This document shows, piece by piece, positions 5,256-26,374 of a DNA stretch of 37,822 nt. The translations under genes and the position numbers were made by a program. Position 1 is the stretch's first letter. Every line of letters starts with the position of its first letter. Source of the DNA: a virus (taxonomy: Duplodnaviria > Caudoviricetes); IMG/VR virus record IMGVR_UViG_3300035527_000247, positions 1 through 37,822 of that record; one strand, 5' to 3'. The notes beneath the pieces were generated by a model. The model made no database searches, was not told where the DNA came from, and saw only the letters and a program-made list of their open reading frames with translations.

Positions 5256-5287
5256 AAATATAAATCTACCCATCCAATCGATCATTC

Positions 5288-8296: not shown

Positions 8297-8298
8297 TC

Positions 8299-10320
8299 TT
8301 ATATCACCGTAACCTTTGTTTCAGGTGAAAGCCTCTTGAACCGCTCTTCTACATTAATACGATCTTTGTCGTCCTTAAAACTTGCGTCTTTGAATACCAC
8401 TTTAAAAGGTTTCAAGCCCGCGATCTCATCGACGATCTTAAAATCAATATCATTGTCAAAACACGCCACAAGCGCGTTAGTCTGAACAATAAAAACCGTA
8501 TTTTTGCCAATTTTTTTTGTTTCAATAGGAAGAGAAAGCTCCAAGCCCAGATCAAGTAAAACTTGCGTAAGCAGGTCTTCAGGCGTGCGATCTTCTTTGA
8601 TATTACTTTCTAAAAACGCAAGCTGTTGCTGATCTAACGAAGCCGGATGATAAAACACATCCTTCATATTACTCGTGTCCGTTTTATAAACACGGAATCC
8701 GATATCGAGCTTGCTCGCATCAATCGGCTCCTGGCCCAACTCCAATTGCTGATTCTTTTTTTTAAGCTCATCGACTATTTTCTTGCCCGCACGACGAATA
8801 CGTTCTTTAGCTAATTCAGTTAAGTAATGAGGCTTAGAAATTTTATCTAAAAAAGAAATGCCATTTTCTATAATTTTTCTTTCAGATGAATCAGCTTTTT
8901 TAAGATTTACATCTAAGTCCTCCGGCAATTGAACTAATATAAAATTAATTTTTTTATTTTCTTGTATAACCAATTTAAATACAGCTTCAGCAGTTGTGCC
9001 AGATCCAGAGAAGAAATCTAAAACAATGTCATTCTCGTTTGTAATAAAATTAATGAGATGTTTAATAAGTGAGACTGGCTTTGGATAAGAAAATAAGTCT
9101 GCGCCCATTAATTCAGAAAGCTCACTAGTCGCATTTTCATTTGTCCCAACACTGTTTAATTTTTTATTTATTATGGGAGTTGTATATTTGTCTTTGATGA
9201 AATTAGTTGGTCTTTTATATCCCTCCTCTGACCTAATAAACCTTATCGATAAGATATCGGACTTAATTATAAACTTTGTCCCATTTTTTATTTCCTCATT
9301 TAAAAATTCCTGCGTCCATTTAAACTCACCCTTAAGCCTAAAATCCTTACTCGCATAACCATCACAAATTTTTATTTCATCTAATAATTCTACTCGATCC
9401 GGTTTCTTAGCAGAATATTTGCCATTCGGAAATTTAGACGGGTTAAAGAAAACTTTATCACATGGAAAAGTTAATATTCTTTCTGAGTTACCTGAATTTA
9501 ATAATGGTTGATCTCCCCCATCCAAAAGCTCACCTTTGTACTTAAATGGATTCCAGCTCTTTTCATAACAAAGAATATATTCGTTTGTTTTTCTTGACTT
9601 AGTAGATAATGCGGGAGGTGTAGATGTCTTTACCCAAGAAAATATTTCAATAAAATTATCTTCGCCAAAAATTTCATCCATAATAGTTTTTAAATTTGCA
9701 ACCTCTTCAACACCTATTGATACAAATATCGCTCCATTTTCGTTCAGTAAATCTCTTGCTACAACCAACCGCTCATACATCATACTCAGCCAATCCGAAT
9801 GAAACCGTCCGTTTGAATCTGTATTCCTGAACAGCTTACCGCCTTCTTCATCTTCCACGCCAAGCTCATCTTCATACTCATCCTTAGTCTTCTTGAAATC
9901 ATCTTTATAAATAAAGTCATTACCCGTGTTATACGGCGGATCAATGTAGATCATTTTGACTTTACCCAGATAACTTTCCTGCAAGATCTTTAAGACTTCA
10001 AAATTGTCGCCTTCGATATACAAGTTCTCTGTTGTGTCAAAATTAACGGATTCTCCACGACAAGGGCGAAGTGTTTGGGTGATAGGTGTATTGGCTTTAA
10101 GAAGAGCCGATTTTTTGCCCGGCCAGTCCAATCGATAACGTTCGCCCTCTCCCTCTACAATATCCTTGGATAACGCGGTTTTAAGCAAATCGAAATCCAC
10201 AGCTTTTTTAAGCGTTCCGTTTTCATCACGCGTTTCGGTGATCACATTAGGAAACAGCTCGGCGATTCGCTCAATATTCTTATCCGTTAAATCCGGTATC
10301 TGCATTTTCAATTTATCCAT
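8299..10320 (-). CDS. mod: Type III DNA methyltransferase Mod subunit (beta-class amino-methyltransferase)
   Basis: YIEGDN, MIYIDPPYNTG, HSDWLSMMYERL, FSYPKP and LDFFSGSGTT in beta-class order. Confidence 0.95.
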   Translation of the reverse strand: MDKLKMQIPDLTDKNIERIAELFPNVITETRDENGTLKKAVDFDLLKTALSKDIVEGEGERYRLDWPGKKSALLKANTPITQTLRPCRGESVNFDTTENLYIEGDNFEVLKILQESYLGKVKMIYIDPPYNTGNDFIYKDDFKKTKDEYEDELGVEDEEGGKLFRNTDSNGRFHSDWLSMMYERLVVARDLLNENGAIFVSIGVEEVANLKTIMDEIFGEDNFIEIFSWVKTSTPPALSTKSRKTNEYILCYEKSWNPFKYKGELLDGGDQPLLNSGNSERILTFPCDKVFFNPSKFPNGKYSAKKPDRVELLDEIKICDGYASKDFRLKGEFKWTQEFLNEEIKNGTKFIIKSDILSIRFIRSEEGYKRPTNFIKDKYTTPIINKKLNSVGTNENATSELSELMGADLFSYPKPVSLIKHLINFITNENDIVLDFFSGSGTTAEAVFKLVIQENKKINFILVQLPEDLDVNLKKADSSERKIIENGISFLDKISKPHYLTELAKERIRRAGKKIVDELKKKNQQLELGQEPIDASKLDIGFRVYKTDTSNMKDVFYHPASLDQQQLAFLESNIKEDRTPEDLLTQVLLDLGLELSLPIETKKIGKNTVFIVQTNALVACFDNDIDFKIVDEIAGLKPFKVVFKDASFKDDKDRINVEERFKRLSPETKVTVI

Positions 10321-10322
10321 TT

Positions 10323-10964
10323 TTATGACTCCTCTTTAATCTTGCGAAGCTGGTTCTTTCTCTCCAGCAATATTTTGTTCAGTTCAACTTTACGATTAAA
10401 CTGTTTTTCCTTTGATATCTTGTTCTCTAAAACTCCGATTTCATTTTCCAACGCCTTGATCTTGTTATCTGTATCGACAATCTCATGAAAACTGGCTTTT
10501 GTCCTCGCTTCATTTGTGATAAAAACCTTGATGACCTTTTGATAAACCTTCTCCAGATCGATCCCAGTAAAGTCAAATACCTTATCTTCGTTCCAGTCTG
10601 AAAAATAATAATTCTCCGGCTTCTGCCCTTTTAAAGTGACTGCGTAAGCCTCGCTATCTTTATAAACAAACCGATACAAAATTTGATACGGAATTGCCTT
10701 ATCAATAACCTTCAAAACATTTTTCGGAATAATCTGCTCTTTAAGCTCAATTTCAAATATCTGGATTTCAGTAACTTTATCTGTTTTGGCAATGCCGACT
10801 GTGCCTTCCGCCAACTTGTATTTCCATGTGATCTTTTGGATCTTATCAATAAATTCCTTTTGCAACTTGGCGCTTAAAGCCGCTTTTTCATAAAATTTAT
10901 TCTTTGCGATAAATTTATTAACAAAAGCCGCTTTGGGCAATTTAAAGCTGTCAATCGCCATCAC
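10323..10964 (-). CDS. DUF4391-like protein
   Basis: 213 aa with I..ITWKYKL, EIQIF, IDKAIPY and C-terminal KEKQFNRKVELN. Its position between an SNF2 helicase and Type III mod is typical of this family. Confidence 0.8.
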   Translation of the reverse strand: MMAIDSFKLPKAAFVNKFIAKNKFYEKAALSAKLQKEFIDKIQKITWKYKLAEGTVGIAKTDKVTEIQIFEIELKEQIIPKNVLKVIDKAIPYQILYRFVYKDSEAYAVTLKGQKPENYYFSDWNEDKVFDFTGIDLEKVYQKVIKVFITNEARTKASFHEIVDTDNKIKALENEIGVLENKISKEKQFNRKVELNKILLERKNQLRKIKEES

Positions 10965-13900
10965 TTGATCACCACAAAGGTCAAAAGCTCAAAATCCTCT
11001 AGACCTTTAATATTGTTCATGAGCGCGGTCGTTCCTCCGGGCGAAAACAGACTATCAACATCACTCTCATCTTTCACATGAAGAACAGACTCAATCGCTT
11101 TATTTAACAGCTGGGAATATTTTGTCATATTCTTTCCGTCATCGGTTTCCTCATTAAACAACTCGTAAACTTCTTGTATGGCTTCGCTGTTGCCTTTACA
11201 AATCGCGCGCAAAATATCCAGTGTTGTTTTTACATTCAAATGATTAGATAAAACATCTCCATTTGCTGTTATATAGACCAAATAAAACGGATGAAGCTGA
11301 TTGGTTTTATCAATATTGACCCCGGCATTGATATTCCTTAATACAAAAATAACGCCCGGCTCAATTCCGCGATCCATATCCTTCTTGCAAACTGCGTGCA
11401 TCCCGTTGGGAAGATTCGCCATACTGCCGTTTTCTTTGATGTAGTTGACCAAATCCATACGGAAATCATTCAAGCCCAAATCAGTTATGGAAACACCGGA
11501 TCCCATGTCCTCGATATCCACTACCTCTTCCTGCAGTTTTTCCAACTGCTTTTTCCGAAATAACAGATCCGATGATTTATTGGTCAACACGTTATCTTCG
11601 CCGGTTGCTGTCGCATCGACCATAAACATCTTGCTTTCAACCCGATTCTTCAAATTTATATAATCATCAAGGGATAATTGCGGCCAGAAGTTGATCAACT
11701 GAATATCTGTATTCCTTGAACCTATTCTATCAATACGCCCGAAGCGTTGAATGATACGCACCGGATTCCAATGGATATCGTAATTAATAAGCATGTCGCA
11801 ATCCTGCAGGTTCTGTCCTTCTGAAATACAATCCGTAGCGATCAACACATCAATCTGAGGCGCATCTTTATCCCTTCTCTCCTTTGAACGTGGAGAGAAA
11901 TTGATAAGAATATTATTAAAATTGTGATCCGCCGAGAGGGTTGTCTGGTTCTTATCAGAACCCGTTACTTTACCGGTTTCCAAATGAAGTGATTTATTGT
12001 AATTGGCAATATTCTCATACAAATAATTCACCGTATCCGCAAACGCGCTGAATATCAATATTTTACGGTTCCCAAGATTAATAGGATGCTCGAGTTTATT
12101 TTTTATAAAAGATTTTAAGTCCTGAAGCTTTTTATCATGTTCGGGTGTCACTCTTTGCATTTCAGCAAATATTGTTTTAGCGATCAAGAGATCTACTTGT
12201 AAATCCTGCTTCCATCCGGATGTGTTCATATCTTCTAAATTGACTTTGACTTTACCACCGACACTAAATTCATCACTGAGCCAGTCATCACTATCGGCAT
12301 CCAGATTGATATCATTAAATTGAGTTGCCTCAACTGATGATTGAACGCCTGTTTTTTCAAACTCTTCTATTTTCCCAATCGTATCCTCAATCTCTTTAAT
12401 GAACTTGCCGAGTGTGATCCGAAATGAATCGACAGAACTCTCTAACCTTTTCAAAAAATTAACCCGCATCAACGTTTGAAGGTTTTTCTCGCGGTGGATT
12501 TGCTGAAAGCTAACATTTTCTTTAATATTCGTGTCATAAATATCACTATAAAACTCTCGCTTTGTATCCAATATATATTCCGTCGGAGAATAAATAGACA
12601 TGGACAACTTTGAAAGCTCTTTGTAAAGCTCTGATATCTCCATAAATCCATTTAGATCGGCAATATCAGCGTGATGCGTGATCGGTTTTAATCTGTTAGG
12701 GAATTTCCCGATCTTATTGATATCGTAATACTTCTCAATATGTTTTCGACTTCGGGCTATTGTGACGCTGTCTAATAATTTAAAGAAATCAAAATTTGCA
12801 TTAAGACGTTTCAACAAATCTTGGCTGGTTCTTTCTTCCAATGGCAGTTTTGACCATTCATTAAATACCCTCTGCGCGTTGGTCAAAATAGTTTCAATCG
12901 ATTTATCCGCGTCCATCTTTCCGTCGGCAATGTTTGTCTCGCCCTCGCAAGCCAAAGCAATCTGATTTTTTAAATCAGTAAACCTGTTATTAACCGGCGT
13001 TGCCGAAAGCATAAGGACTTTCGTTTTAACACCTGCCTTCATAACATCATTGAGAAGCCTTTGATAGCGGGTTATCCTGTCTTTTCGAGGGTCATTGTTT
13101 CTGAAATTATGCGATTCATCTATAACGACAAGATCATAGTTCCCCCAATTGATCCTTGATAAATCTATTCCGTTAGATTCGCCACAGTCACGCGATAAAT
13201 CTGTATGATACAAAACATCGTAATTCAGGCGATCTTTGATCAGAGGATTGTCATCGTAATTATTTAAAAATGTCTGCCAATTATCCCCTAACCTTTTCGG
13301 ACAAAGAACAAGCACCGTGCGGTTTCTCTCCTGATAATATTTGATTACAGCCAACGCGGAAAAAGTTTTTCCAAGCCCGACGCTGTCGGCAAGAATACAT
13401 CCGTTATGACGTTCCAGCTTATTAATGATCCCCAAAGCGGCATCCTTCTGGAAGTCGTATAGCTTATTCCAGATGGCAGAATTCTTAAATCCAGTTTTCT
13501 CGTTGGCGAGTTCGTCTTCTGATATATCTTCTAAGAATTCATCAAAGATATTAAAGAGAGTTAAATAGTAGATAAATTCGGGAGAGTTTTCTTTATAGAG
13601 ATTCGCGATATATCCGACGACATCATCAGTCACATTCTTCAATACAGATTCATCATTCCATATCTCTTCAAAATTTTGAATGTACTGTTTTGTGGTTTCA
13701 AAATCATCGGTCTTGATAATTTGATGCAGAATCGAATTATTTTTCTCGTAACCAAACCCTGCACTACTGAATTCGTTTATCCCCATATAAACGTCTTTAT
13801 TCTCGCCGTTCATCAACGTAATATGCGGCTGAATATATTTATCGCCGACATTTGTTTTAAACGTTACTTTTTGTTCAATCCATTTTTTGCATTCCTTGGC

Positions 13901-14206
13901 GATCGCCTTGCCTTTTAGTTCATTCTTTAAATTGATCTCAAAGTCTGAACCACCGATAGACTTCTGCCTAAGATCTGCTCTGATTTGGAACTGTTTCTTT
14001 TCTCTTTTGTTTTTATCAACTTCAATAAAAGTGGGATCAGTGAAGATAAAATCTAATTTTTCAACTTTCTTTAGCTCATTTTTCAAACATTCAAACCCAT
14101 ATATCGTAAAGATACCAGCCGCGACCTGAAGCTTGCTTTCCTTCCCGATGCATTTCTTGAAATCATCGCCAACTTTTTCAGTTTTATTGTTAAAACTTTG
14201 AATCAT
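10961..14206 (-). CDS. SNF2-family helicase with an N-terminal degenerate PLD-like domain
   Basis: LADSVGLGKT, IDESHNFRN, LSATPVNN, SEGQNLQ, WNPVRIIQRFGRIDRIG. The N-terminal ~190 aa has a PLD-like layout. Confidence 0.9.
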   Translation of the reverse strand: MIQSFNNKTEKVGDDFKKCIGKESKLQVAAGIFTIYGFECLKNELKKVEKLDFIFTDPTFIEVDKNKREKKQFQIRADLRQKSIGGSDFEINLKNELKGKAIAKECKKWIEQKVTFKTNVGDKYIQPHITLMNGENKDVYMGINEFSSAGFGYEKNNSILHQIIKTDDFETTKQYIQNFEEIWNDESVLKNVTDDVVGYIANLYKENSPEFIYYLTLFNIFDEFLEDISEDELANEKTGFKNSAIWNKLYDFQKDAALGIINKLERHNGCILADSVGLGKTFSALAVIKYYQERNRTVLVLCPKRLGDNWQTFLNNYDDNPLIKDRLNYDVLYHTDLSRDCGESNGIDLSRINWGNYDLVVIDESHNFRNNDPRKDRITRYQRLLNDVMKAGVKTKVLMLSATPVNNRFTDLKNQIALACEGETNIADGKMDADKSIETILTNAQRVFNEWSKLPLEERTSQDLLKRLNANFDFFKLLDSVTIARSRKHIEKYYDINKIGKFPNRLKPITHHADIADLNGFMEISELYKELSKLSMSIYSPTEYILDTKREFYSDIYDTNIKENVSFQQIHREKNLQTLMRVNFLKRLESSVDSFRITLGKFIKEIEDTIGKIEEFEKTGVQSSVEATQFNDINLDADSDDWLSDEFSVGGKVKVNLEDMNTSGWKQDLQVDLLIAKTIFAEMQRVTPEHDKKLQDLKSFIKNKLEHPINLGNRKILIFSAFADTVNYLYENIANYNKSLHLETGKVTGSDKNQTTLSADHNFNNILINFSPRSKERRDKDAPQIDVLIATDCISEGQNLQDCDMLINYDIHWNPVRIIQRFGRIDRIGSRNTDIQLINFWPQLSLDDYINLKNRVESKMFMVDATATGEDNVLTNKSSDLLFRKKQLEKLQEEVVDIEDMGSGVSITDLGLNDFRMDLVNYIKENGSMANLPNGMHAVCKKDMDRGIEPGVIFVLRNINAGVNIDKTNQLHPFYLVYITANGDVLSNHLNVKTTLDILRAICKGNSEAIQEVYELFNEETDDGKNMTKYSQLLNKAIESVLHVKDESDVDSLFSPGGTTALMNNIKGLEDFELLTFVVIK

Positions 14207-16355: not shown

Positions 16356-16907
16356 TTATGATTGACCGCCACGGACAGGACGAACATAACACTGATCACC
16401 CCAGATTATTCCGTATGTAGTTAAATAACCATCATAGGCGTACACCGCCCAAGCCCCGTCACTCCACGGAGCACAGATAGTCGATGACCACCAAACACCC
16501 CACTGGTCTGGACACGGAGCGAAATACGACGTATCTAAAGCGGGATCGTATCTTCCGTAATCATTAATTGATGCTATTTCAAAAACATTCGGCAAACGCC
16601 AATCGCTATAACCCGCATAGTTCAAGTTTTCGCACGCATCGAGAGCGTTATACCATTGCATTGGAGATCCCAAACCGGCGGCCGCTGGATCTTTAACCCA
16701 AATCAACCCGGTAGCCATATCTGTCACGGTTCCGTTACCGTTATCAACAAATCTTTGACCCCAGTTAATTGGGTGACCGATTTGGTAATAACCGTCATCA
16801 TACGGATACCACGACATATACTGACCGGTCTTCGGCAATCCGCCATCGGTCTGTATTTCCGTGACCCTGTTTACAATCCTGCTTGATTTTTTATGATTAA
16901 GATGCAT
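16356..16907 (-). CDS. DUF1566 / Lcl C-type-lectin-like domain protein
   Basis: LPKTGQ, RFVDNGNGTVTDMATGLIW, GYSDWRLPN..E, WWSST...AW.V...G...YVRPVRGG. Confidence 0.9.
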   Translation of the reverse strand: MHLNHKKSSRIVNRVTEIQTDGGLPKTGQYMSWYPYDDGYYQIGHPINWGQRFVDNGNGTVTDMATGLIWVKDPAAAGLGSPMQWYNALDACENLNYAGYSDWRLPNVFEIASINDYGRYDPALDTSYFAPCPDQWGVWWSSTICAPWSDGAWAVYAYDGYLTTYGIIWGDQCYVRPVRGGQS

Positions 16908-16919
16908 TTTTTAGCCTCC

Positions 16920-17210
16920 TTAGTCTTCATACGTGACCGTTAATTTACCGTCGTCATTCCCAGCCCGAACAACCCTGAAATCCTTTATGTGATAAATGGA
17001 CGGAAGCTCAACAATATCGCCGTCCTCAAGTAACGTCCCTGATGACTGCGATGGGTTTTGACCATTTACGAAATACCTCATGGGTCCGTCCTCGGCATGG
17101 ATAATGGCAAACACCGCTGGCGCCCCTTCCGCGGGGTTATATATCGCCGGGGTTAACTGCTTCACTGCGGTACTGACAATTATTTCTTCATGTGCTAATA
17201 CTTTTGACAT
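16920..17210 (-). CDS. Small beta-rich phage protein, possibly structural
   Basis: RBS AAGGAGG before ATG 17210; MRYFVNGQNPSQSSGTLLEDGDIVEL suggests a beta-sandwich. Confidence 0.6.
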   Translation of the reverse strand: MSKVLAHEEIIVSTAVKQLTPAIYNPAEGAPAVFAIIHAEDGPMRYFVNGQNPSQSSGTLLEDGDIVELPSIYHIKDFRVVRAGNDDGKLTVTYED

Positions 17211-17212
17211 TT

Positions 17213-18382
17213 TCAATCCTCCTTTTTTAATGCCTGTAAAATTTCCTCGCCTTGCTTTGCGACATCAACCAAAACCTGACCTATCTTAAAAAGCATCCGC
17301 TCACGACGATCCGCAAGCTCAACCGGCAGGAAACCTAAAGCCTGATCGTTTTCAACTGCACAGATCTTGCAATACTTCGTAACAGGAACCATAAGCTCCT
17401 GATTAACCTTGTAATGCGTGATAACGCAACTGTGGCAGGTCTTTGCGTGCTTGCAGTGCTTGGCGCAACCGGTGTATTCCTTATCTATATTCAAGAATAT
17501 GCCCCTGATAAACGGCACCTCGTTGAATATATTGCCCAGTTTGAATATCCTTGCGCTTGCCGAACGGTGGCAGGGGTAAACGTCGCCATTATCCAGCACC
17601 GCAATGTAACTTTTACCGGCTTGGCAATACTCCTTCTCAGGTGGCATTTCGTCATTTACGATCTTGAGCGGTTTATCAATGAAGGCAATATGGAACGGAA
17701 TATCCTGTCGCTTGCAATACCGTCTGTAATGGTAAACCTGACCCAGCTGATAGGCGTACTGTTCAACAGCGTCATCCGTCCAATCGTCCTCAATAACAGC
17801 ATGGTGCATAATCTTCGTGACACCAATTTCCTGATGCAGATACTTGATGTTAATCGATAAACGACCAACGGTCTTTGGCGTGAACGTCATCCGCACACTC
17901 ATGTCAGGTTTAATCTTTAAAATCTTCTTCATGTTCTCAACGATAAGGCTGTAATCCCCATGACGATACTCTGCATGGGTGATCTCATCGCCATCGCAAC
18001 TGACCTGAATCGCCATACCTAACTCTGCAAACCGTTTGAATAACTCCTCATCGAAATACGTTCCGTTTGTTGAAATCGAGAATGTAGAAGTATGCCGACC
18101 CTTATCATCAGGTGGCCAGAGAGTGCGTGCATATTCAGCAAGCTCCAACACCGTCTGAGGGAAAAGTAAAGGCTCTCCCCCGAAGAACGTGATCTGCATA
18201 GCGTCCGGGCTTAACTGTTTCATCCGATCAAGAATCTTTTTGCCTTGATCAACCGATAGAACAGCTCCAGTCTTTGGGTGAAAACAGTAATCGCATTTCA
18301 TGTTGCATTTCTCGGTAATAAATAGATCAACGCTTTTGATCTCGTTCTTTAAATTACCGGCTACTAATTCTTGTTCTGACAT
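17213..18382 (-). CDS. Radical SAM/SPASM-domain enzyme (third of three)
   Basis: CNMKCDYC (CX3CX2C), FFGGEP, SPASM CQAG...GDVYPC...CAKHCKHAKTCHSC...YC. Confidence 0.93.
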   Translation of the reverse strand: MSEQELVAGNLKNEIKSVDLFITEKCNMKCDYCFHPKTGAVLSVDQGKKILDRMKQLSPDAMQITFFGGEPLLFPQTVLELAEYARTLWPPDDKGRHTSTFSISTNGTYFDEELFKRFAELGMAIQVSCDGDEITHAEYRHGDYSLIVENMKKILKIKPDMSVRMTFTPKTVGRLSINIKYLHQEIGVTKIMHHAVIEDDWTDDAVEQYAYQLGQVYHYRRYCKRQDIPFHIAFIDKPLKIVNDEMPPEKEYCQAGKSYIAVLDNGDVYPCHRSASARIFKLGNIFNEVPFIRGIFLNIDKEYTGCAKHCKHAKTCHSCVITHYKVNQELMVPVTKYCKICAVENDQALGFLPVELADRRERMLFKIGQVLVDVAKQGEEILQALKKED

Positions 18383-19449
18383 CTGTGACTCCTTTCAAGT
18401 TCTATATATTTTTTTATAACCTTAAACAAAACCTTATTCATCCCGCAGTAACCGGGTTCGGGCTTTAACATGTCGCCCATATGCTCAAGGTTTAATCCTA
18501 AACACTTATTCCGAGGACACTGTTTATACAGCTCACACCCTTCACAATACTGACCCAAATACTTCTCACGATTCTCGTCAATCTCCCAAACATAATCCAG
18601 CTTTGAATAATCAATGCCGTCATAAACCGTCCCTAATTTGTTATGCTGGCAGATATACATGTTGTCGCACTGCCAAATACCGCCCGCAGTGTCGATAAAT
18701 AAACGCTCTAATCCTGTCCGGCAGAAGTGAAAGTCTTTGACCTGAGCCTTTAACCCGAACTCCCTGGCATAAGCGTTTGAGTGCAGTGCCGGATTAAGCG
18801 TCTTATACAGCTCTGATTCACGTTTATACTTCTGAAGCAACTTGAAATACTGCTCGGCGAACCTCTCCAAATCTTCTTCCTTATGGTCAAAGCGGGTAGC
18901 AAGATCAATTGTAATGTTGTGCGTTATGTTGTTCGCAATGTAATCAAAATCTTCCTCGAGCTTGTCATAACGAACGACCATAAAGTTCACATTATGGTTG
19001 GGATTATCACGCACAAGTTTCAGCATACCGGGTTCAGCTTCTGCTTTCTGACGAACCCCGCCATACTTCTCGTAGCAGTTGCCAAACGACCATGTGAGAC
19101 CAATGCTTCGATTGCCTAAGAAGTAGTCCAGCATTTCACCTTTAACCAAAGACCCATTGGTGTTGGTGTGAAACTGCATTTGCGGATACTTTTCCATAAC
19201 TTGCTTAATCACCTTAAAGTTAATCGTCGGCTCACCACCCCAGAAGTAGATCGTGAACTTGGGATCAAGTTTCAGTTTCGTAAAACAGAACTCCAAAATG
19301 TCATCCGCAGTCTTAGTCGACATGCTTGCAGGCCCGAGCGTTGACATAGGATTGCGATCAAACAAACCCTTCCGATAACAGAACGAGCAGTGAACATTGC
19401 ACGCATGAGTCAAATACAGATAGACTGATTTATACGTAGGAATCCTCAT
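18364..19449 (-). CDS. Radical SAM/SPASM-domain enzyme (second of three)
   Basis: CNVHCSFC, FWGGEP, SPASM CRTG...GGIWQC...CEGCELYKQCPRNKC...C. Confidence 0.93.
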   Translation of the reverse strand: MRIPTYKSVYLYLTHACNVHCSFCYRKGLFDRNPMSTLGPASMSTKTADDILEFCFTKLKLDPKFTIYFWGGEPTINFKVIKQVMEKYPQMQFHTNTNGSLVKGEMLDYFLGNRSIGLTWSFGNCYEKYGGVRQKAEAEPGMLKLVRDNPNHNVNFMVVRYDKLEEDFDYIANNITHNITIDLATRFDHKEEDLERFAEQYFKLLQKYKRESELYKTLNPALHSNAYAREFGLKAQVKDFHFCRTGLERLFIDTAGGIWQCDNMYICQHNKLGTVYDGIDYSKLDYVWEIDENREKYLGQYCEGCELYKQCPRNKCLGLNLEHMGDMLKPEPGYCGMNKVLFKVIKKYIELERSHRCQNKN

Positions 19450-20663
19450 TTACGACCCCCATGATAAAGCTCGTCCACACCAGTCTCGATAGCTTTGCGA
19501 GCAATATATTCGTGCGTTGAAGCCTCAATCCTGTTTGCCCAGCAATGATTCGGCGCAGGTTTAAGCGGATTGCCAGTCACTGTATAGTTCTCAGCTAAAC
19601 ACATCGCTCGAGGACAACAACGTATATCGCCGTCAAGGCAAACCTCACACCCACGGCAATGCTCGTAAAGGTCGTCTATCCAGTCACCCATCTTTTTGAA
19701 GAAGTACGCTGTATCGTTAAACCCTGCCTTAACGTCGCCGATCTTAAACTCTGGGAAGTTAGCAAAGAAGTCGCAAGGAAAAATCTCACCCTTGTTATTA
19801 ATAGCGATGTAAAGATAACCGCACCCGCAGAACGTAGGCGGGACATCTTTTAAATCAACGCCTTTTAATTTGCGATAGATATTGTTCTTAAACGCAATGT
19901 CCCACTGCGACCGGTTAAATTTCGGCTCACCGCTAAAATAAACATAATCGGCTATGCGTTTAAATATCTCCTTAAACTGCTCGTTCTTGTTTTTGACAAT
20001 ATCCCAGTGCCGAGCAGAAGAAACACGCACAACCGGCACGCCGTATTCATAAAGATAAATAATCTCGTCATAAACACTCTCATCTTCAGGGTCATCAACC
20101 ACGTAATGAACATCCCCTCCGTTAGCCTTTACCAAATCAAGAACAGGCTCTGCTTTCTGCAAATATGACTTTCCCAACACTCTCTTAAGGGCAGATATAC
20201 TCACGCTGAGGTTAAGATGATACTTGTGTTTGAGAACCCAATCCCGCAATTCAGGATCATTGAGAAGAATAAGACCGTTTGTCGTAACTACGTACCGATA
20301 CATGCAATACGTATCACAAAGGTATTTCACCATCGGAATATTCACAAATGGTTCACCGCCAAATATGCTGAATTTAACTTTACGTTCATCAAACGTCTTT
20401 GACACCCAAGACATCGTCTTATCAATAACGCTCTGCGGGATATCCGAATTCTTCTGCCTGAACTCTTTGGGCTGATAACAATAGGGGCAATTTAAATTAC
20501 AATCCTGCGTCATCAAAAAATAAACGGTGGTATATTCCTGACGGCCATTCGTGATTGAATCAACATCAAACATGCCTTCGCCCTTATACCGTTTAATGAT
20601 GTCCCTGCATTGAGAGGGCAAATCACCGCATGATTTAGATCTTTTCAGTTCAAATACCGACAT
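19446..20663 (-). CDS. Radical SAM/SPASM-domain enzyme (first of three)
   Basis: CNLNCPYC, IFGGEP, SPASM CGCG...GEIFPC...CRGC...CCPRAMC...C. Confidence 0.93.
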   Translation of the reverse strand: MSVFELKRSKSCGDLPSQCRDIIKRYKGEGMFDVDSITNGRQEYTTVYFLMTQDCNLNCPYCYQPKEFRQKNSDIPQSVIDKTMSWVSKTFDERKVKFSIFGGEPFVNIPMVKYLCDTYCMYRYVVTTNGLILLNDPELRDWVLKHKYHLNLSVSISALKRVLGKSYLQKAEPVLDLVKANGGDVHYVVDDPEDESVYDEIIYLYEYGVPVVRVSSARHWDIVKNKNEQFKEIFKRIADYVYFSGEPKFNRSQWDIAFKNNIYRKLKGVDLKDVPPTFCGCGYLYIAINNKGEIFPCDFFANFPEFKIGDVKAGFNDTAYFFKKMGDWIDDLYEHCRGCEVCLDGDIRCCPRAMCLAENYTVTGNPLKPAPNHCWANRIEASTHEYIARKAIETGVDELYHGGRK

Positions 20664-21045
20664 CTTTTCTCCAATCTAATTTGCTCGAATCCTCATTTAT
20701 TGCTTTCACGTCCATGCCGATCCTGTCTGTTATCATTTGAACCTTGTCTTTGTCCAATGGGGCAATATGTGAAAGATAAACCTTGTTCTTTTTATCTCCG
20801 GCGATGATCAGAAGATAATCGGAAGTATTACCATTGATCCCTTCAACGCCAAGCCCCTGATACACTTCCTGCAACGCTGAAATAAAACTATTAACGTCCG
20901 CAAACCTACCTTGAGTAAAAGTTCCGACGCTATCATCTTCTAAATTATTCTTAACCCAATAAATCAACTCGGTTATCGTGTCTTCTTTTTCATGAACCGA
21001 TATAGCCTTCGTCAATTTATGCGGCTTCATTTGGTCTTTAAACAT
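20650..21045 (-). CDS. Hypothetical protein between the Cys-rich gene and the rSAM cluster
   Basis: Start reassigned to MFKDQMK at 21045, 4 nt after the Cys-rich gene stop; 131 aa; overlaps the first rSAM start. Confidence 0.7.
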   Translation of the reverse strand: MFKDQMKPHKLTKAISVHEKEDTITELIYWVKNNLEDDSVGTFTQGRFADVNSFISALQEVYQGLGVEGINGNTSDYLLIIAGDKKNKVYLSHIAPLDKDKVQMITDRIGMDVKAINEDSSKLDWRKDVGI

Positions 21046-21049
21046 CTCA

Positions 21050-21775
21050 TCACCATGAATAAGGGTTACATTTACAATTCCAAGCCGTATGGTTATGCCC
21101 ACCTTGATACTCACACGATCCCCAGTTTGATCCAGGTGGTGCATATGAACACCAATCCCACGGCACATACCCATCCCACGCAACAGGTGGATTCGCCGAC
21201 TTATACGGATATTCTGTCGCTGAAGGCAAATTGATACTCGCACAATTCCAATAATGATTTATCGAATGATGGCACTCTGAATATTTATGATCATCACAAG
21301 CTACCGAAGCATGAGAACATGACGTATAGTGATAACCGCAATCCGCACAATACTGGCACTGCTCCGTCTCGCAAATACAACTTGTCATAAGAGCCTCAAC
21401 AACGTCTCTGGCTTCTCTGAAATGAACGCCTCTGACCTCTGTAATAAGGGCAGTAATTGTTGGATCGGTTAAATCTATACATCCAGAATTATCCTCCGGA
21501 CAGTAACTCGACTCACCTCGACCAGACTTGCACTGTGCAAGCTCAGACCTAAGTTCATCCATATGAACTTTCCTGATCTCAGTCACTAACGCTGTAATAC
21601 TCGGATCTGTGTAGCTCCCTGTAGATTTACCCCTGCGGGTAAACTCCGCATTTAACATCGATCTCAACTCGTCCATATGCGGTTTGCGCACCTCTGTTGT
21701 TAAATCCGTGATAGTCGGATCAGTCCAAGAGGGCGTATTGCCTGAACATTGTTTTGGTGGTAATAAATGCGCCAT
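21050..21775 (-). CDS. Cys-rich repeat protein; putative tail-fibre component and rSAM substrate
   Basis: 241 aa with three TDPxITxLxTE(V/I)RxxHxxExR repeats and 17 Cys. The C-terminal half is rich in C/H/W/Y. RBS AGGAG. Confidence 0.75.
   Translation of the reverse strand: MAHLLPPKQCSGNTPSWTDPTITDLTTEVRKPHMDELRSMLNAEFTRRGKSTGSYTDPSITALVTEIRKVHMDELRSELAQCKSGRGESSYCPEDNSGCIDLTDPTITALITEVRGVHFREARDVVEALMTSCICETEQCQYCADCGYHYTSCSHASVACDDHKYSECHHSINHYWNCASINLPSATEYPYKSANPPVAWDGYVPWDWCSYAPPGSNWGSCEYQGGHNHTAWNCKCNPYSW
21407..21727 (-). repeat. Three degenerate ~22-aa coding repeats
   Basis: WTDPTITDLTTEVRKPHMDELR (aa17-38), YTDPSITALVTEIRKVHMDELR (aa55-76), LTDPTITALITEVRGVHFREAR (aa102-123). Confidence 0.9.
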
Positions 21776-21783
21776 ATCAACTC

Positions 21784-22284
21784 CTATGTGGCATAAACCG
21801 CTGTGCCAGCACCAAAATCAAAGAAACCTTTTGAGCCGACATCATTTGTTCCATAATATTTATTGTTACCCGGAGAAGCCACTCCGCCTTCCAGCTTGCC
21901 GGTGCCAACCCCGCCATCCTTTAACTGCAACTGGTCACTGCCTGATACCTGAAACATCGCTGTATCGATTAATCCGTCCAAATACTCCGGCGTTGTATCG
22001 CTTACATCAGCTTTTAATTTGTTGGGCGAATTAGCAAACGGTAAAACACCAGCCGCTGAAGGCACACTTGCCAAACCTGTGAGGGCTGACCCATGAACCT
22101 TATTCACAGTCGTAATCTGCGCCAACTTTGCATCTTCAATGCCAGCACCCGGGGCAACCTTATCGTTAGTGATCTGCAAATTAGGATCCGCACCCAACTC
22201 TAATGCTTCCCAGTTCGCACGGCATGCGGCAGGGAAGTTAATCAAAAGCATGTCATTTTCTGGTTTTGTCTTGTCCCATGCCAT
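21784..22284 (-). CDS. Putative tail-fibre proximal/adaptor protein
   Basis: Start reassigned to MAWDKTKPEND at 22284 behind AAGGAGG (166 aa). ITNDKV, IEDAKL and VGTGKL are fibre-shaft-like motifs; follows the gpJ-like gene. Confidence 0.6.
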   Translation of the reverse strand: MAWDKTKPENDMLLINFPAACRANWEALELGADPNLQITNDKVAPGAGIEDAKLAQITTVNKVHGSALTGLASVPSAAGVLPFANSPNKLKADVSDTTPEYLDGLIDTAMFQVSGSDQLQLKDGGVGTGKLEGGVASPGNNKYYGTNDVGSKGFFDFGAGTAVYAT

Positions 22285-22531
22285 CGGATACCTCCTTATT
22301 TTTATACTTCTCGGCAACCTCATTCATGTCGTACAGCTCAACTCCGTGTTCACGTAAAGTCTCAATCCAGCAAACATCGTGCATGAAAAGGTTCTGAGCA
22401 TAGTTATATGCTTGCTCAACACAGGTGTAGACCATAGGGCGTTTGCGGGGAGTCCTCAAAACAATATCTCCTCGGACAACAACATACGCCATCGCCTCTG
22501 AAATCTTTTGTTTACACCTGTGGCAATTCAT
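22253..22531 (-). CDS. Small zinc-finger-like protein
   Basis: CHRC near the N-terminus and HDVC later (CxxC...HxxC); 92 aa. Confidence 0.6.
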   Translation of the reverse strand: MNCHRCKQKISEAMAYVVVRGDIVLRTPRKRPMVYTCVEQAYNYAQNLFMHDVCWIETLREHGVELYDMNEVAEKYKNKEVSDGMGQDKTRK

Positions 22532-22742
22532 CGATTACTCCTTCACTTGTCTTTGCGTGTTTAATAAATTTATCCAGCAATCCATTAAAAGCAGGTTTGC
22601 TAAAATTCGCATTCTTTAAACCAATCGTCTTTGTTTTTCCTATCGATCCGTTATCGTTAACCTTATAAATAATGACTCCGTTGACGAATTTGCCGTCAAC
22701 GAACTCAATAACAATTTTGCAAGGTTCTAATTTCTTTGCCAT
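22512..22742 (-). CDS. Hypothetical protein
   Basis: 76 aa, RBS AGGAG, directly after the tail-tip gene. Confidence 0.6.
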   Translation of the reverse strand: MAKKLEPCKIVIEFVDGKFVNGVIIYKVNDNGSIGKTKTIGLKNANFSKPAFNGLLDKFIKHAKTSEGVIDELPQV

Positions 22743-22750
22743 GATCGCTC

Positions 22751-25700
22751 CTAAATTCCGTGGCTGTGCCAGTCAAACATTCCTGCCTGAGCCACGCCCT
22801 GTGCGTTATAAAGTTTTACTTCAAACCCTGTTATTGTTTTATTCTCAAACCGTGCGTAAATGCCATCCCCAGTTGTAATCTCAATATGCACACTCGGTTC
22901 TTCGTGATACGTTTTTGTAAAAAATATCTCCTTGCCGTCATCGGCAACCGTAATCTCATCGCTTCCATGCTCATCCACATCCGGCAAATCACCGAAGTAG
23001 GCTAAAGTAGAGCAGGTCACATAATCACCCAAGTTCTCTCTTGTTAAGGTCATCTCAATTTGAAAATACCGGCAATAATAATCACCTGCCTGATAATCCA
23101 CCCAATCGCTCCATACAATGTTGTCTTCAGAAGTCTTTATCCTAAAGCTGGCCGCTCTGAGTGTTTCTTGACCTGTAAACCTGAAAGAAACGTTATCATC
23201 GAAGCGTGACGTACCATCACTGTTAAAACGCCTTCCTGTCGAGATTGAAGCAATAACATCAACGCCTATATAAACTGTTGCGACATACCCAATATCCCTG
23301 ACCGGCGTCTCATATGATCCTGATAACTGACCGTCTGAGATAATAAGCGTTTCTGAATCTCGCTCGAGGTTGGAAAGGGTGCCTAGCCAATCGGGATGTT
23401 CTTCATATTCCGCAATGATATTTCTAAACGGAATAGTACTAACAGTGACAATCGCTTCCTTAGCGTTCTCTGAATAGTTGCCCGATGTATCCATAGCTTT
23501 AATCCAGTAACTCTGCTCAACGCCTCGTTTGACATCAGTCGTTAAATACGAAGTGCCTTGCTGAAAGGTAATAAGCTCACCACTTTCCCAGTCAATACCA
23601 CGCCTTATTTCATAACCCCACACGTCAACATCGCTGATTGCAGTCCATCCGAGATAAAGCATGTCACGGTTCTGATTAACCAAAAATGAAGTTACATCCG
23701 AGGGCGGTGCGGACTTACCGACAATAGTAATCTCCTGAGTAGGCGAGGTTTCAAAATCGCCTTCCTCTCCGTTATCCGTAACAGAAACAACTCGAACCTT
23801 ATATGTGTGGTCATCAATGATGTCGCCAAGTATCTGAAAATGCGTTCCAGTAGTTTCACCCCTGAAGCCCCAGCTTGATCCGTCGTTATCGCTTATATAA
23901 ACCTTTGCTTTTGCGTAAGTCTTAACGTAATGCGAAGCAACATTGGGCTTATCAAACCAAACATCAATAGCGTTCTCGATCGTGCCGTCTGCTTTTTTGA
24001 CCAAAACTTCAGTCAAATTAAGGTTCTCAACATTAGGTATCTCCGAAGACAAAGAAGAATAGTTGGTGTTCGGCAGAATGATATCCGAATCGTCATATAC
24101 GTTTTCGTTATACTCAAGAGCCTGTATCTGACACTCGTTCGTGCCTTCACGCTGGATTGACACAACACGGAAATCTTTCTTAATCTTGTTGGTCTCGCCG
24201 ATAGCGTAAACATCATAAGCCTGCGGAACATAGCTGAACTCCTCACATACGATCTCCGTGCAAGTTCCAGTAGGCGATGTAATCAACTTCTCCTCAATAA
24301 CATCATCTGAAAAACGAATTTGTATCTTGTAAGACTTACCGTCCTCAATCACCATTTCACGATCAAGTTTTATAAGCGTAGTTGTCGAGTCCGGCTGAAT
24401 CCTGCCTGAAAAACCCCATTGAGGAACGTCGTGTGAAATCGAAATAATATCCCCAGCCTGACAGGCGATAGCGTCAATTCCTGCCCTGAAGGTGATTGAA
24501 CGATTGATATATCGTGCAACCTTTAATGCGTATCGAGCCGCTCGGATAGCGTAACTTGTGCGTGTCGTAAAAAGCCTGATCTGACTCTTACGCATAGGCT
24601 CACCCGAAGATAAAGCGTCCTCATCAATGTATGAAACCGTCTCCTGACGGTATCCTTTATCCTTATCCATAAACTGAATCTCGATCACATTGGGAATCTC
24701 TTTAAGGGTTTTCCAGCTCTGAGCGAAAGTGTCTTTAACGATATTCCCCATGCCGAAAAGTTGTGTCGGATTTGATTCTTTGTCGATCTTGAAAGATAAC
24801 CCTCCAGCACTGTAAACAGGCATTGCGTTAAACGTTGCACAAAGCTGAATGAGCATATCAAGTGCTTTAGTATTGGAATCAATAACGACATCCATCCTGA
24901 ACCGCTTCTCAAAACCACCTGCACCGTCGGGAACCTTTTCCTCGCAATATTGAGCCATCTCTAAGAGTAAAGCGTTATCCAAATTCGCATGAGATATAAA
25001 CTCACCCAAACCGTAACGGTAGTTCGTATTAAAATCCCTTAAGCACCAAACAGGATTGGCGCAATACTGATTGACATAAGAAGACCCATCCCAATCAAGC
25101 AAAGTATCATCCGCAAGCAACCGGTAATCTGACCCATCCCAGTAATAATCTTCCCAGTCAATCGGCACTCCCGCATTACGCACATCCGGTGCTGACACTT
25201 TTCTGCCTTTAACAACCGCTGTTATGTTAGGCATAGAACCCGAAAGCTGATCCGTTGCCAATAGCTTCAGCCCCAAAAGGACAGTATTTGGATACCTTAG
25301 GTCATCTGTTTTAATCTCATCCATCTGAAACCACATAAGATCACCTTGTCTTAATGGATCCAATGACGAGTCATTCGATGTTCGTGTCACACGAATATCG
25401 TATTGACCGGGTGCAAGACCTTCTTTGCGGAACATTCTGCGAACAGTTGATCGTGACTTTGCAGAGATAGTGGTCTCTCCCAAATCAATGTAAGTCGGGT
25501 CTGTATGAAGTTTGTATTCAACCTTGAAAGTAACGCTCCAGCTTGAAATCCCGCCACCGCCACTTTGCTGATACAACCCGCTACCAAGCCTTAAATGAAC
25601 CTCAAATGCCTCAACATCAGAATCAACAGTGGTGTAAACGTGAGGATTATCTTTTGTGAGGTTCACATTAACCGAATAAAGGTTATGCAGATCTTCAAAG

Positions 25701-26374
25701 TTAGGGATAACCGTCTGTGAATTTGTGCCGAACCTTTCATACATCGTTACTCCGCCGAAATTCCCAAGAGGGTTGTTGTTTATTTCAATATCTCCAATGG
25801 ATTCAATCTCACCTTCACAAAGAGCGAGTAGAACATTTAAATAATTTTTGTCACCGTCATCCCTTAAAAACTGGTTTATGATATTTCCACCGATCTTATG
25901 CTCACCGTAAACAACCGCTATCGGAACGCCAACCTCCTGAATAGTCTGAGCACCATCCCATCCATAAGTGGGCGATCCTTCATCAAGACCGCCTGAGGGT
26001 CCGCTCCCAAGGTTAAAATCAGGCATCCTCGGCTGGTTCATGTACTGATAAATTGAGTAACCCATCGACAGCATGTAGAACGTAAATAGAAAAGGGTGTG
26101 CGACCGCATAAGCCGCTATGGCTGAAACGACCCAAGAGATGACTGCTACTACCGGAGCTTTAACTTCAGGAATCACCGTAATCTCGTCATCATCTTCGAG
26201 TTTAGTGTCAATCTCGCTTATCCGTTTGCCTGAAACAATGACACGTTTTTCTTTATAATCGAATCCCGATTCGTCCAGAAAATCACGCAAAGACTTATCC
26301 CTTGAAAAGGAAAGCTCCTTAACTTGTGCGTCTTCCAACTTAAATGGATTGTCTATGTTTCGTATTACTACCAT
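22751..26374 (-). CDS. Tail tip / host-specificity protein, lambda gpI-gpJ-like fusion
   Basis: N-terminal ubiquitin-like segment, GVPIAVVYGEHKIGGN, LCEGEIESI, LRYPNT, VKGRKV, NPVWCLRD, AGDIISISH and FN3-like C-terminal domains; 1207 aa. Confidence 0.88.
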   Translation of the reverse strand: MVVIRNIDNPFKLEDAQVKELSFSRDKSLRDFLDESGFDYKEKRVIVSGKRISEIDTKLEDDDEITVIPEVKAPVVAVISWVVSAIAAYAVAHPFLFTFYMLSMGYSIYQYMNQPRMPDFNLGSGPSGGLDEGSPTYGWDGAQTIQEVGVPIAVVYGEHKIGGNIINQFLRDDGDKNYLNVLLALCEGEIESIGDIEINNNPLGNFGGVTMYERFGTNSQTVIPNFEDLHNLYSVNVNLTKDNPHVYTTVDSDVEAFEVHLRLGSGLYQQSGGGGISSWSVTFKVEYKLHTDPTYIDLGETTISAKSRSTVRRMFRKEGLAPGQYDIRVTRTSNDSSLDPLRQGDLMWFQMDEIKTDDLRYPNTVLLGLKLLATDQLSGSMPNITAVVKGRKVSAPDVRNAGVPIDWEDYYWDGSDYRLLADDTLLDWDGSSYVNQYCANPVWCLRDFNTNYRYGLGEFISHANLDNALLLEMAQYCEEKVPDGAGGFEKRFRMDVVIDSNTKALDMLIQLCATFNAMPVYSAGGLSFKIDKESNPTQLFGMGNIVKDTFAQSWKTLKEIPNVIEIQFMDKDKGYRQETVSYIDEDALSSGEPMRKSQIRLFTTRTSYAIRAARYALKVARYINRSITFRAGIDAIACQAGDIISISHDVPQWGFSGRIQPDSTTTLIKLDREMVIEDGKSYKIQIRFSDDVIEEKLITSPTGTCTEIVCEEFSYVPQAYDVYAIGETNKIKKDFRVVSIQREGTNECQIQALEYNENVYDDSDIILPNTNYSSLSSEIPNVENLNLTEVLVKKADGTIENAIDVWFDKPNVASHYVKTYAKAKVYISDNDGSSWGFRGETTGTHFQILGDIIDDHTYKVRVVSVTDNGEEGDFETSPTQEITIVGKSAPPSDVTSFLVNQNRDMLYLGWTAISDVDVWGYEIRRGIDWESGELITFQQGTSYLTTDVKRGVEQSYWIKAMDTSGNYSENAKEAIVTVSTIPFRNIIAEYEEHPDWLGTLSNLERDSETLIISDGQLSGSYETPVRDIGYVATVYIGVDVIASISTGRRFNSDGTSRFDDNVSFRFTGQETLRAASFRIKTSEDNIVWSDWVDYQAGDYYCRYFQIEMTLTRENLGDYVTCSTLAYFGDLPDVDEHGSDEITVADDGKEIFFTKTYHEEPSVHIEITTGDGIYARFENKTITGFEVKLYNAQGVAQAGMFDWHSHGI

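What the first reader, a model, noticed from the sequence alone, without database searches (positions are those of the whole stretch)
16356..22742. RiPP-like triple radical SAM/SPASM module embedded in the phage tail-fibre locus
Seen: three consecutive, divergent radical SAM genes, each with CX3CX2C, GGEP and a SPASM Cys cluster. They overlap one another (4 and 19 nt) and follow a 17-Cys protein and a 131-aa orphan gene. The block lies between the gpJ-like/fibre genes and the lectin/holin genes, and I found no internal terminator. Known: SPASM enzymes modify peptides and proteins (sactipeptide and ranthipeptide thioethers, triceptide cyclophanes, anSME formylglycine). Inference: a late-expressed system that crosslinks or otherwise modifies a virion receptor-binding protein rather than a secreted peptide, since no RiPP-type transporter or leader peptidase lies beside the cluster. 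I do not know of a characterised example.
Basis: partly seen in the sequence, partly recalled or inferred. Interest (0 to 1): 0.92.

Follow-up and report, generated by a model that had tools for sequence, protein, structure and literature searches.

The report
Triple radical-SAM phage fibre-cap cassette
At the end of its tail genes this phage encodes a cysteine-rich protein predicted to cap the tip of a three-chain tail fibre, followed by three iron-sulfur "radical SAM" enzymes that travel with it in related phages and likely staple its cysteines to nearby residues, a way of finishing a virus particle that the papers I could search do not describe.

Summary
Observation confirmed. Three intact PapB/CteB-like radical SAM/SPASM genes (A, B, C) follow a 241-aa, 17-Cys gene in a lambda-like tail operon; close relatives are Omnitrophota prophages.

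Linkage is tight: 26 of 26 distinct relatives with enough downstream DNA carry A+B+C, in sipho- and myovirus tails. A sister phage with a 90%-identical gpJ swaps substrate and enzymes together.

(1) The upstream 166-aa fibre-like gene ends in a Tyr motif shared by 19 of 24 otherwise varied upstream genes. A model docks its three ends into the three repeats of the Cys protein (0.67 vs best control 0.31): a gp38-like monomeric cap.
(2) Conserved Cys-x-x-(Asp/Glu/Asn) motifs point to ranthionine crosslinks.
(3) Only C keeps the SxDG..R loop.

The Lcl and 98-aa genes are not part of the module. The chemistry, virion location and receptor binding are untested. The scan has noted this same system on other DNA (five earlier notes, four genomes) and the theme in 82 findings. 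Ten literature searches found no description.

The parts
22751..26374 (-). gpJ-like central tail tip protein (context)
   Evidence: PF24801, PF13550; phrog_31 E 1e-165
22512..22742 (-). 76-aa ORF, conserved in this phage family, unknown function (context)
   Evidence: no family
22253..22531 (-). 92-aa ORF, conserved in this phage family, unknown function (context)
   Evidence: no family
21784..22284 (-). 166-aa short fibre-like protein, predicted trimer; its last residues 159-166 (Tyr164) are the predicted docking peptide for the cap
   Evidence: start from RBS and homologues; V163-Y164-A165 invariant in 22 rows; Tyr end motif in 19 of 24 upstream genes; complex model; no Pfam or PHROG hit itself, so 'fibre' rests on position and on weak tail-family hits of positional equivalents
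21380..21775 (-). Cys-rich protein, residues 1-132: three TDPTIT..R..H..E(L/A)R repeats forming one pseudo-threefold helical domain, predicted fibre-attachment domain
   Evidence: repeats; three helices at pLDDT mostly 70-90; H33 and H71 invariant, H118 nearly so; interface residues 22-31, 60-70, 107-116
21050..21379 (-). Cys-rich protein, residues 133-241: Cys/Tyr/Trp/His-rich tail, predicted substrate of the radical SAM enzymes
   Evidence: 13 Cys; conserved C133-E136, C135-E138, C234-N237, C178-N182; pLDDT mostly under 50
20650..21045 (-). 131-aa accessory protein, alpha/beta fold, not PqqD-like by the search run; optional or mobile within the cassette
   Evidence: 19 of 26 loci; weak remote homologues after C in L276 and L289; model pLDDT 80.6, best fold match Z 4.5
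19446..20663 (-). rSAM_A, radical SAM/SPASM, lacks the SxDG..R loop
18364..19449 (-). rSAM_B, radical SAM/SPASM, lacks the SxDG..R loop
17213..18382 (-). rSAM_C, canonical radical SAM/SPASM (SxDG..R kept) with a conserved C-terminal extension
   Evidence: PapB model 175.5 bits vs cut-off 340; CteB 5WGG E 1.8e-19
16356..17216 (-). 98-aa ORF and Lcl C-terminal domain gene: neighbours, not part of the module
   Evidence: absent in L064, L065, L069; Lcl present beside the swapped single-enzyme cassette

Best explanation
The block is a tail-operon cassette in which a 241-aa protein is predicted to cap the three C-termini of a short trimeric tail fibre, and the three adjacent radical SAM/SPASM enzymes likely crosslink its cysteines to Asp, Glu or Asn three residues downstream, which would rigidify a tip that likely binds the host. 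Steps: (1) shown: gene order, intact motifs, strict co-occurrence, joint exchange of substrate and enzymes. (2) predicted by a model and by an independent sequence motif: each of the three repeats binds one Tyr-ended fibre chain, so one monomer caps a trimer, as S16 gp38 does on gp37. (3) inferred from family chemistry: SAM cleavage gives 5'-dAdo radical, H is abstracted next to the acceptor's carboxylate or amide, and a Cys held at auxiliary cluster I couples to give a ranthionine (-2 Da each). Candidate pairs: C10-N13, C92-D95, C133-E136, C135-E138, C234-N237, possibly C178-N182. (4) inferred: labour is divided. C is canonical; A and B have a remodelled SAM-binding loop and either serve other sites or act as substrate-binding partners, which may stand in for the missing RRE. 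(5) inferred, weakest: the stapled C-terminal domain is the receptor-binding part, and thioethers give redox-proof rigidity where disulfides would not form (reducing cytoplasm, likely anaerobic host).
For: Co-occurrence: of 122 Cys-gene loci (81 distinct C-termini), 26 of 26 with at least 4.5 kb downstream have A+B+C and 63 of 63 with at least 700 bp have a radical SAM gene. The reverse direction also holds. The cassette follows the fibre slot in siphoviruses with gpJ at 25-93% identity and in myovirus baseplate operons (L032, L056, L092, L294). Cassette swap: L093 has gpJ 90%, gpL 95% and fibre 87% identical to the window, but a different three-repeat protein (23% identity; hhalign 97%) with a CECECTCTC tail, one SPASM enzyme (29% to C) and a B12-binding radical SAM. 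Register: 210 of 534 Cys in 31 non-redundant homologues have D/E/N at +3, against 81+-7 in shuffles; -3 is depleted at 46 of 536. Nearest enzyme families are thioether formers (PapB model best for all three; CteB best PDB hit). CrpC installs ranthionines in a 28.8-kDa protein with C-X-X-Q/D motifs (PMC13692751). Cap: Y[AGS]x end in 19 of 24 upstream genes vs 39 of 1,164 background ends. Complex score 0.67, best of 3 controls 0.31; the mark was reached by 116 of 157 solved and 2 of 215 mismatched pairs; runs agree in at least 95% of contacts; partner pLDDT at least 79; the interface is exactly the Tyr164 ends in the three repeats.
Against: No biochemical or proteomic evidence. All three enzymes score far below the curated PapB cut-off (175, 101, 97 vs 340) and lack CteB's N-terminal region (alignments start at CteB 91-98). 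PapB's native motif CX3D is absent from the substrate. Only 5 of 17 Cys are in a C-x-x-(D/E/N) motif; C140/C143/C146 form an invariant CxxCxxC that could bind metal. The +3 counts come from homologous columns and are not independent events. A and B lack SxDG in 18 of 18 and 14 of 14 homologues, so they may be inactive or do other chemistry. Distant A/B-like enzymes (L184, L208; joined at SH-aLRT 94 in a quick tree) sit among fibre genes without a Cys-rich ORF. L298 has a split A followed by C with no B between. The complex calibration holds only roughly for a 3+1 job with my own alignments, and the control that kept the cap scored 0.31, just under the 0.32 mark. The 166-aa gene has no family hit that names it a fibre. 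Most loci belong to one related prophage group.
Confidence: 0.6

Rival explanations
1. The enzymes act on the same fibre cap, but the chemistry is not (only) Cys thioether: aromatic C-C cyclophanes on the conserved Trp/Tyr, other oxidations, or help in loading a metal or Fe-S centre held by the cysteines.
For: Conserved W206, W218, W232, Y142, Y148; invariant CxxCxxC at 140-146; A and B non-canonical; B12-type radical SAMs appear in sister cassettes.
Against: Strong conserved +3 D/E/N register; cyclophane-forming models (YhhB, DynA, WgkB) score far below PapB; no anSME-type (C/S)xPxR motif.
Confidence: 0.2
2. The Cys-rich protein is a fibre assembly chaperone (like T4 gp38 or a Tfa) that binds the fibre ends transiently and is not the receptor-binding part of the mature virion.
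For: A docking model cannot tell transient from permanent binding; T4's own gp38 is a chaperone (PMC6851490 passage).
Against: A chaperone gives no reason for a swappable, highly variable Cys tail with dedicated enzymes.
Confidence: 0.12
3. The cassette is a conventional RiPP cluster carried as cargo: the three repeats are leaders and a released Cys-rich peptide acts outside the virion.
For: Leader-plus-core layout resembles CrpA and RiPP precursors; PapB-like enzymes.
Against: No transporter or peptidase. The repeats form one folded domain with 3,759 profile hits, many in large proteins without a Cys tail, and it also partners a single enzyme. Position is fixed after the fibre gene in two tail types; the fibre docking model.
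Confidence: 0.06

Closest known systems
CrpC/CrpA of Methanococcus voltae (PMC13692751; abstract, section 8, discussion and passages read)
   Same: SPASM radical SAM beside a 25-29-kDa protein with an N-terminal domain and C-terminal Cys-rich region; C-X-X-D type motifs with Cys before the acceptor; seven-Cys SPASM.
   Different: One enzyme with an RRE, archaeal chromosome, repetitive core; here three RRE-less enzymes in a phage tail operon and a non-repetitive tail on a predicted fibre cap. 'phage' and 'tail' occur 0 times in its main text.
PapB (NF047865) and CteB (PDB 5WGG) ranthipeptide maturases
   Same: Best family model and best solved relative for all three enzymes; Cys-to-Asp/Glu thioether with the acceptor C-terminal, i+1 to i+7 tolerated by PapB (PMC12373016 passages).
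   Different: Below cut-off; no N-terminal RRE region; substrate has i+3 not CXXXD; Asn appears as a likely acceptor; substrate is a folded protein.
QhpD/QhpC (quinohemoprotein amine dehydrogenase gamma subunit)
   Same: Radical SAM thioethers (Cys-Asp, Cys-Glu) that build a structural protein subunit (as summarised in PMC13692751).
   Different: One enzyme with RRE and leader; periplasmic enzyme subunit, not a virion part.
Salmonella phage S16 gp37(3)-gp38 adhesin (PDB 6F45; PMC6851490 passages)
   Same: A monomer with a three-helix attachment domain caps a homotrimeric fibre through three symmetry-equivalent aromatic contacts; the distal domain is variable.
   Different: No sequence or fold match detected. 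In S16 three Trp of gp38 enter pockets of gp37; here the model puts the fibre's three Tyr ends into the cap. The distal domain is Cys-rich, not polyglycine, and needs enzymes.
CXXX-repeat target systems (PF27846 tSAM_targ_Cxxx_rpt; TIGR04115)
   Same: Cys-repeat targets beside SPASM enzymes; Atlas clusters with PF27846 that are 50-83% viral are weak neighbours (scores 0.77-0.80).
   Different: Uncharacterised; substrate here has no CXXX repeat; TIGR04115 scores 91, 36 and 74 vs cut-off 350.

Membership tests
Radical SAM superfamily | CX3CX2C cluster motif and GGE motif in a PF04055 core | tested here: met
   (C and A above the Pfam cut-off, B 28.2 vs 29.5)
Radical SAM superfamily | Reductive SAM cleavage | not testable with these tools
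   needs purified enzyme; A and B lack the SxDG..R loop
SPASM subclass | C-terminal seven/eight-Cys auxiliary-cluster motif | tested here: met
   seven conserved Cys in each of A, B, C; PF13186 for C, TIGR04085 29.7 vs 27 for A
PapB family (NF047865) | Score above the curated cut-off of 340 bits | tested here: not met
   175.5, 100.7, 97.2
Ranthipeptide RiPP system | RRE/PqqD domain on the enzyme or stand-alone | tested here: inconclusive
   B and C have only 16 and 25 residues before the cluster motif, A has 54; alignments to CteB start at 91-98; no PqqD-like chain among the 50 rows listed for orf131
Ranthipeptide RiPP system | Short precursor with cleavable leader, plus peptidase or transporter | tested here: not met
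   substrate is 241 aa with a folded N-domain; no peptidase or transporter by Pfam
Ranthipeptide RiPP system | Cys donors with conserved downstream acceptors | tested here: met
   C-x-x-(D/E/N) 210 of 534 vs 81+-7; CX3D absent
Ranthipeptide RiPP system | S-to-beta/gamma-carbon thioether shown by MS | not testable with these tools
   experiment needed
NxxcB-type (N-x-x-C beta-thioether; motif recalled and named in earlier scan notes) | Asn three residues before the Cys | tested here: not met
   D/E/N at -3 in 46 of 536 vs 83+-7 expected
Anaerobic sulfatase maturase (anSME) | (C/S)xPxR substrate motif (recalled) | tested here: not met
   absent from the Cys-rich protein; TIGR03942 67 vs 349
T-even gp38 adhesin | Sequence family match and polyglycine sandwich | tested here: not met
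   no Pfam, PHROG or PDB sequence hit; 6 Gly in the 109-aa tail
T-even gp38 adhesin | Monomer capping a trimeric fibre by a three-helix domain | tested here: met
   by prediction only: 0.67 vs best control 0.31; Tyr end motif
T-even gp38 adhesin | Same fold as the gp38 attachment domain | tested here: inconclusive
   not among the listed matches; best Z 7.7 to a designed helical filament

The most novel reading that the evidence does not exclude
Phages build a class of gp38-like tail-fibre adhesins whose receptor-binding domain is shaped by radical SAM crosslinks rather than by folding alone. Here a three-enzyme line does it (one canonical catalyst plus two remodelled paralogues, possibly one per acceptor type Asp, Glu, Asn, or as a hetero-complex replacing the RRE), and the phage changes host recognition by swapping cap and enzymes as one cassette.
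Probability: 0.35. Interest if true: 0.93.

Novelty: new variant of a known kind. Interest (0 to 1): 0.8.

Why it matters
If true, RiPP-type radical chemistry is a step in virion assembly, and host recognition by these phages depends on a post-translational modification that cannot be read from sequence or predicted by folding programs. It would explain many unannotated radical SAM genes in phage tail regions, including in cultured phages such as SPN3US. It would supply RRE-less enzymes that crosslink a folded protein, probably including Cys-Asn links, and it names a widespread three-repeat domain as an adaptor for trimer C-termini. This family is non-repetitive, so it fixes the donor-acceptor register (+3) that alternating Asn-Cys ladders leave ambiguous, and gives site-level predictions.

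Tried and rejected
Fold searches of the Cys-rich model found nothing significant: Foldseek PDB and BFVD had no E<=0.001, VIA best Z 7.7, PDB sequence search best E 0.085. The C-terminal half was too poorly modelled to test. orf131 as a stand-alone RRE: best Z 4.5 and no PqqD row listed.

No cultured GenBank phage carries the Cys-rich protein (0 of 50,697 records); rSAM_C hits there are distant (103 records; 21-28% identity in the 60 rows listed). The CP220 hit showed no annotated Cys-rich neighbour and was not pursued.

Expression: two metatranscriptome runs hold relatives at mostly 85-95% identity as contigs across tail and module alike; this cannot show transcription. Promoter and terminator scans were at or below chance. 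The careful tree did not finish; the quick tree joins A and B at only 82.

'Three repeats = three leaders for three enzymes' was rejected: the same domain partners a single SPASM enzyme. NxxC and anSME registers were rejected.

Paper searches (10 of 10): radical SAM+SPASM+phage+tail fiber; radical SAM+bacteriophage+virion+cysteine-rich; phage-encoded+radical SAM+RiPP; Velamenicoccus+prophage; anSMEcpe+ribose motif+SPASM; radical SAM+jumbo phage+tail fiber; two gp38 searches; thioether/radical SAM/virion protein/phage tail, 3 of 4 terms; SPN3US+radical SAM. None listed a description. Most hits were seen as listings only; passages of PMC12801897 and PMC13434306 were irrelevant. A paper on the host bacterium was not held. 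Subscription journals and the CrpA homologue supplement (Supplemental Data set 1 of PMC13692751, not opened) could hold phage cases.


Full report
Setting. The window is one 37.8-kb virus record. The minus strand carries a lambda-like head-tail operon: portal, protease, major head protein, tail genes, tape measure, gpM/gpL/NlpC-like genes and gpJ. Then come small genes, the block in question, an Lcl-domain gene, a hydrophobic holin-like ORF, an excisionase-like gene and a type III restriction-modification-like cluster. The twelve genome hits of the Cys-rich protein are titled Candidatus Omnitrophota (7), Ca. Velamenicoccus archaeovorus (1), Planctomycetales MAGs (3) and one short Saccharibacteria contig. 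An Omnitrophota host is therefore likely but inferred. The best-matching runs are oil-field metagenomes.

Observation. The three radical SAM genes, their overlaps, motifs and the 17-Cys gene are as described. For all three, the best NCBIfam model is the ranthipeptide maturase PapB, below cut-off, and the best solved relative is CteB. The alignments start at CteB residue 91-98, so CteB's N-terminal region, which holds its RRE (recalled), has no counterpart. Another run's contigs reproduce most of the block without differences.

Linkage. I gathered 122 loci with the Cys-rich gene from viral, genome and metagenome collections, giving 81 distinct C-termini. All 26 with at least 4.5 kb downstream have A, B and C, and all 63 with at least 700 bp have a radical SAM gene; orf131 is recognisable in 19 of the 26. 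From the enzyme side, orthologues of A (23 loci), C (21) and B (27) all lie on contigs with the Cys-rich gene. Three of these contigs were first reached that way, though the B and C profiles were built from Cys-gene loci and so are biased towards them. In 401 genomes of the phylum of G001, 8 have B; 7 have the Cys-rich gene and the eighth contig begins inside A. These genomes may overlap those. The cassette is not tied to one tail type: it follows gpJ loci of 25-93% identity and also myovirus baseplate operons, directly after the gene in the fibre slot. One exception: L298 has a split A followed by C, with no B between. The Lcl and 98-aa genes are dispensable.

Cassette exchange. Eight loci (L093-L095, L097-L100, L114) have the same fibre gene (79-87% identity) but a different partner: a three-repeat protein ending in a CECECTCTC run and a single SPASM enzyme. 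In L093 gpJ is 90% and gpL 95% identical to the window, closer than most trio-bearing relatives at about 75%. Yet the Cys protein is 23% identical, the SPASM enzyme 29%, and a B12-binding radical SAM follows. Substrate and enzymes were exchanged as a unit in a constant backbone. This is the best genomic sign that the enzymes serve this protein.

The substrate. Residues 1-132 hold three repeats that fold into one helical domain at good confidence; residues 133-241 are poorly modelled. The domain is widespread (3,759 profile hits), including at the ends of large non-phage-looking proteins without a Cys tail, so the repeats are not three leaders. In 31 homologues under 70% identity, 210 of 534 Cys have Asp, Glu or Asn at +3, against 81+-7 in local shuffles; +1 is moderately raised (140 vs 94) and -3 depleted (46 vs 83). 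The conserved pairs are C10-N13, C92-D95, C133-E136, C135-E138 and C234-N237, plus C178-N182 at +4. These counts reflect shared ancestry and are not independent events, but both partners are kept at 30-60% overall identity. The spacing matches the C-X-X-Q/D motifs of CrpA, a protein in which CrpC installs ranthionines (PMC13692751: abstract, section 8, discussion, passages). It also lies within PapB's tolerated i+1 to i+7 range (PMC12373016 passages). In the Asn-Cys ladder proteins of other phage loci, +1 and +3 cannot be separated (107 vs 108 Asn); this family separates them.

The cap. The gene just upstream of three-repeat Cys genes varies from 134 to 452 aa, yet 19 of 24 distinct ends match Y[AGS]x, against 39 of 1,164 background ORF ends, which include these same genes. 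The misses were L096, L120, L125, L288 and L289. V-Y-A stays invariant even when about 25 residues are inserted before it. I predicted that three such ends dock in the three repeats and ran the complex job with three copies of fibre residues 87-166 and residues 1-147 of the Cys protein. The score was 0.67, best of three controls 0.31; the mark was reached by 116 of 157 solved complexes and 2 of 215 mismatched pairs, counts that hold only roughly for this job. Runs agreed in at least 95% of contacts and partner pLDDT was at least 79. The interface was residues 159-166 of each fibre copy, centred on Tyr164, against repeat residues 22-31, 60-70 and 107-116. No solved relative was found by sequence, so memory of a like complex is unlikely. 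The model supports binding and does not show it. The architecture parallels S16 gp38 on gp37 (PMC6851490 passages), without detectable homology.

The three enzymes. A, B and C each form their own clade across sipho- and myoviruses (97-100 SH-aLRT, quick tree), so they are old, specialised paralogues. C keeps the S-x-D-G loop with its downstream Arg in 12 of 12 non-redundant homologues. A (0 of 18) and B (0 of 14) keep the Ser but not the Asp-Gly, while all cluster Cys are retained. That this loop contacts SAM is recalled from anSME/CteB structures; my search for a source found none. A and B may be altered catalysts or non-catalytic partners. Against a simple reading, their nearest outside relatives in the tree (L184, L208) lie among fibre genes with no Cys-rich ORF by my threshold.

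Wider picture. Many distant phage SPASM genes neighbour Cys-tailed proteins. The cultured phage SPN3US has two Cys-repeat ORFs, missing or mis-framed in its RefSeq annotation, between a virion gene and two radical SAM genes. Earlier scan notes describe this same system in four other genomes, the theme in 82 findings and fibre-cap readings for other families (seen after my own test). They are unchecked notes and I count none as support.

Verdict. This is a real, conserved and exchangeable module. The most likely mechanism is ranthionine-type stapling of a monomeric fibre cap (0.6). It works like CrpC/QhpD chemistry on a gp38-like architecture, but belongs to neither the PapB family nor the gp38 family by the tests run. 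Ten paper searches found no description (listed under Tried and rejected), within the limits of the library. Novelty: new variant of a known kind. Interest 0.8.

Noticed in passing
L058 6070-6462 and 6473-6877 (SPN3US, NC_027402): Two CXXX-repeat ORFs (both phrog_6085) precede two radical SAM genes; RefSeq omits the first and annotates another frame over the second. A cultured test system.
   Followed up: partly
L093 9296-10645; L096 9931-11268: The single-SPASM cassettes carry a second radical SAM (with a B12-binding domain hit in L093), suggesting methylation of a Cys-Thr tail.
   Followed up: partly
L208 7899-9020; L184 7800-9023: Single A/B-like radical SAM genes inserted among Gly-rich fibre genes with no Cys-rich ORF; substrate unexplained.
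   Followed up: partly
L134 4978-10628; L116 8004-15553; L191 7995-13303: Other phage tail loci with four or five radical SAM genes beside Cys-repeat proteins, from different enzyme lineages.
   Followed up: no
L280 13122-16253: A second three-repeat Cys-tail gene with its own radical SAM genes lies about 4 kb after the trio in the same contig.
   Followed up: no
L264 8169-9666: Two extra approx. 260-aa Cys-containing genes (SPASM hit in the first) are inserted between orf131 and B.
   Followed up: partly
P0032: A homologue of the Cys-rich protein carries an 80-aa C-terminal extension that resembles, from recall, the intramolecular chaperone of tail fibres; not tested.
   Followed up: no
P0038, P0041, P0049: The three-repeat domain also ends large repeat-rich and RHS-like proteins; it may be a general adaptor for trimer C-termini.
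   Followed up: no
window 21050-21775, His33/His71/His118: One conserved His per repeat could form a metal site on the pseudo-threefold axis; coordinates were not inspected.
   Followed up: no
window 599-14206: Cargo next to the phage end: SNF2-type helicase, DUF4391, DNA methylase and type III restriction subunit, an SMC-like gene and two unassigned genes; likely a defence island at the integration site.
   Followed up: no
window 16356-16907: Lcl C-terminal domain gene, variable (44-64% in most relatives) and present with both cassette types; a possible second host-binding protein.
   Followed up: partly
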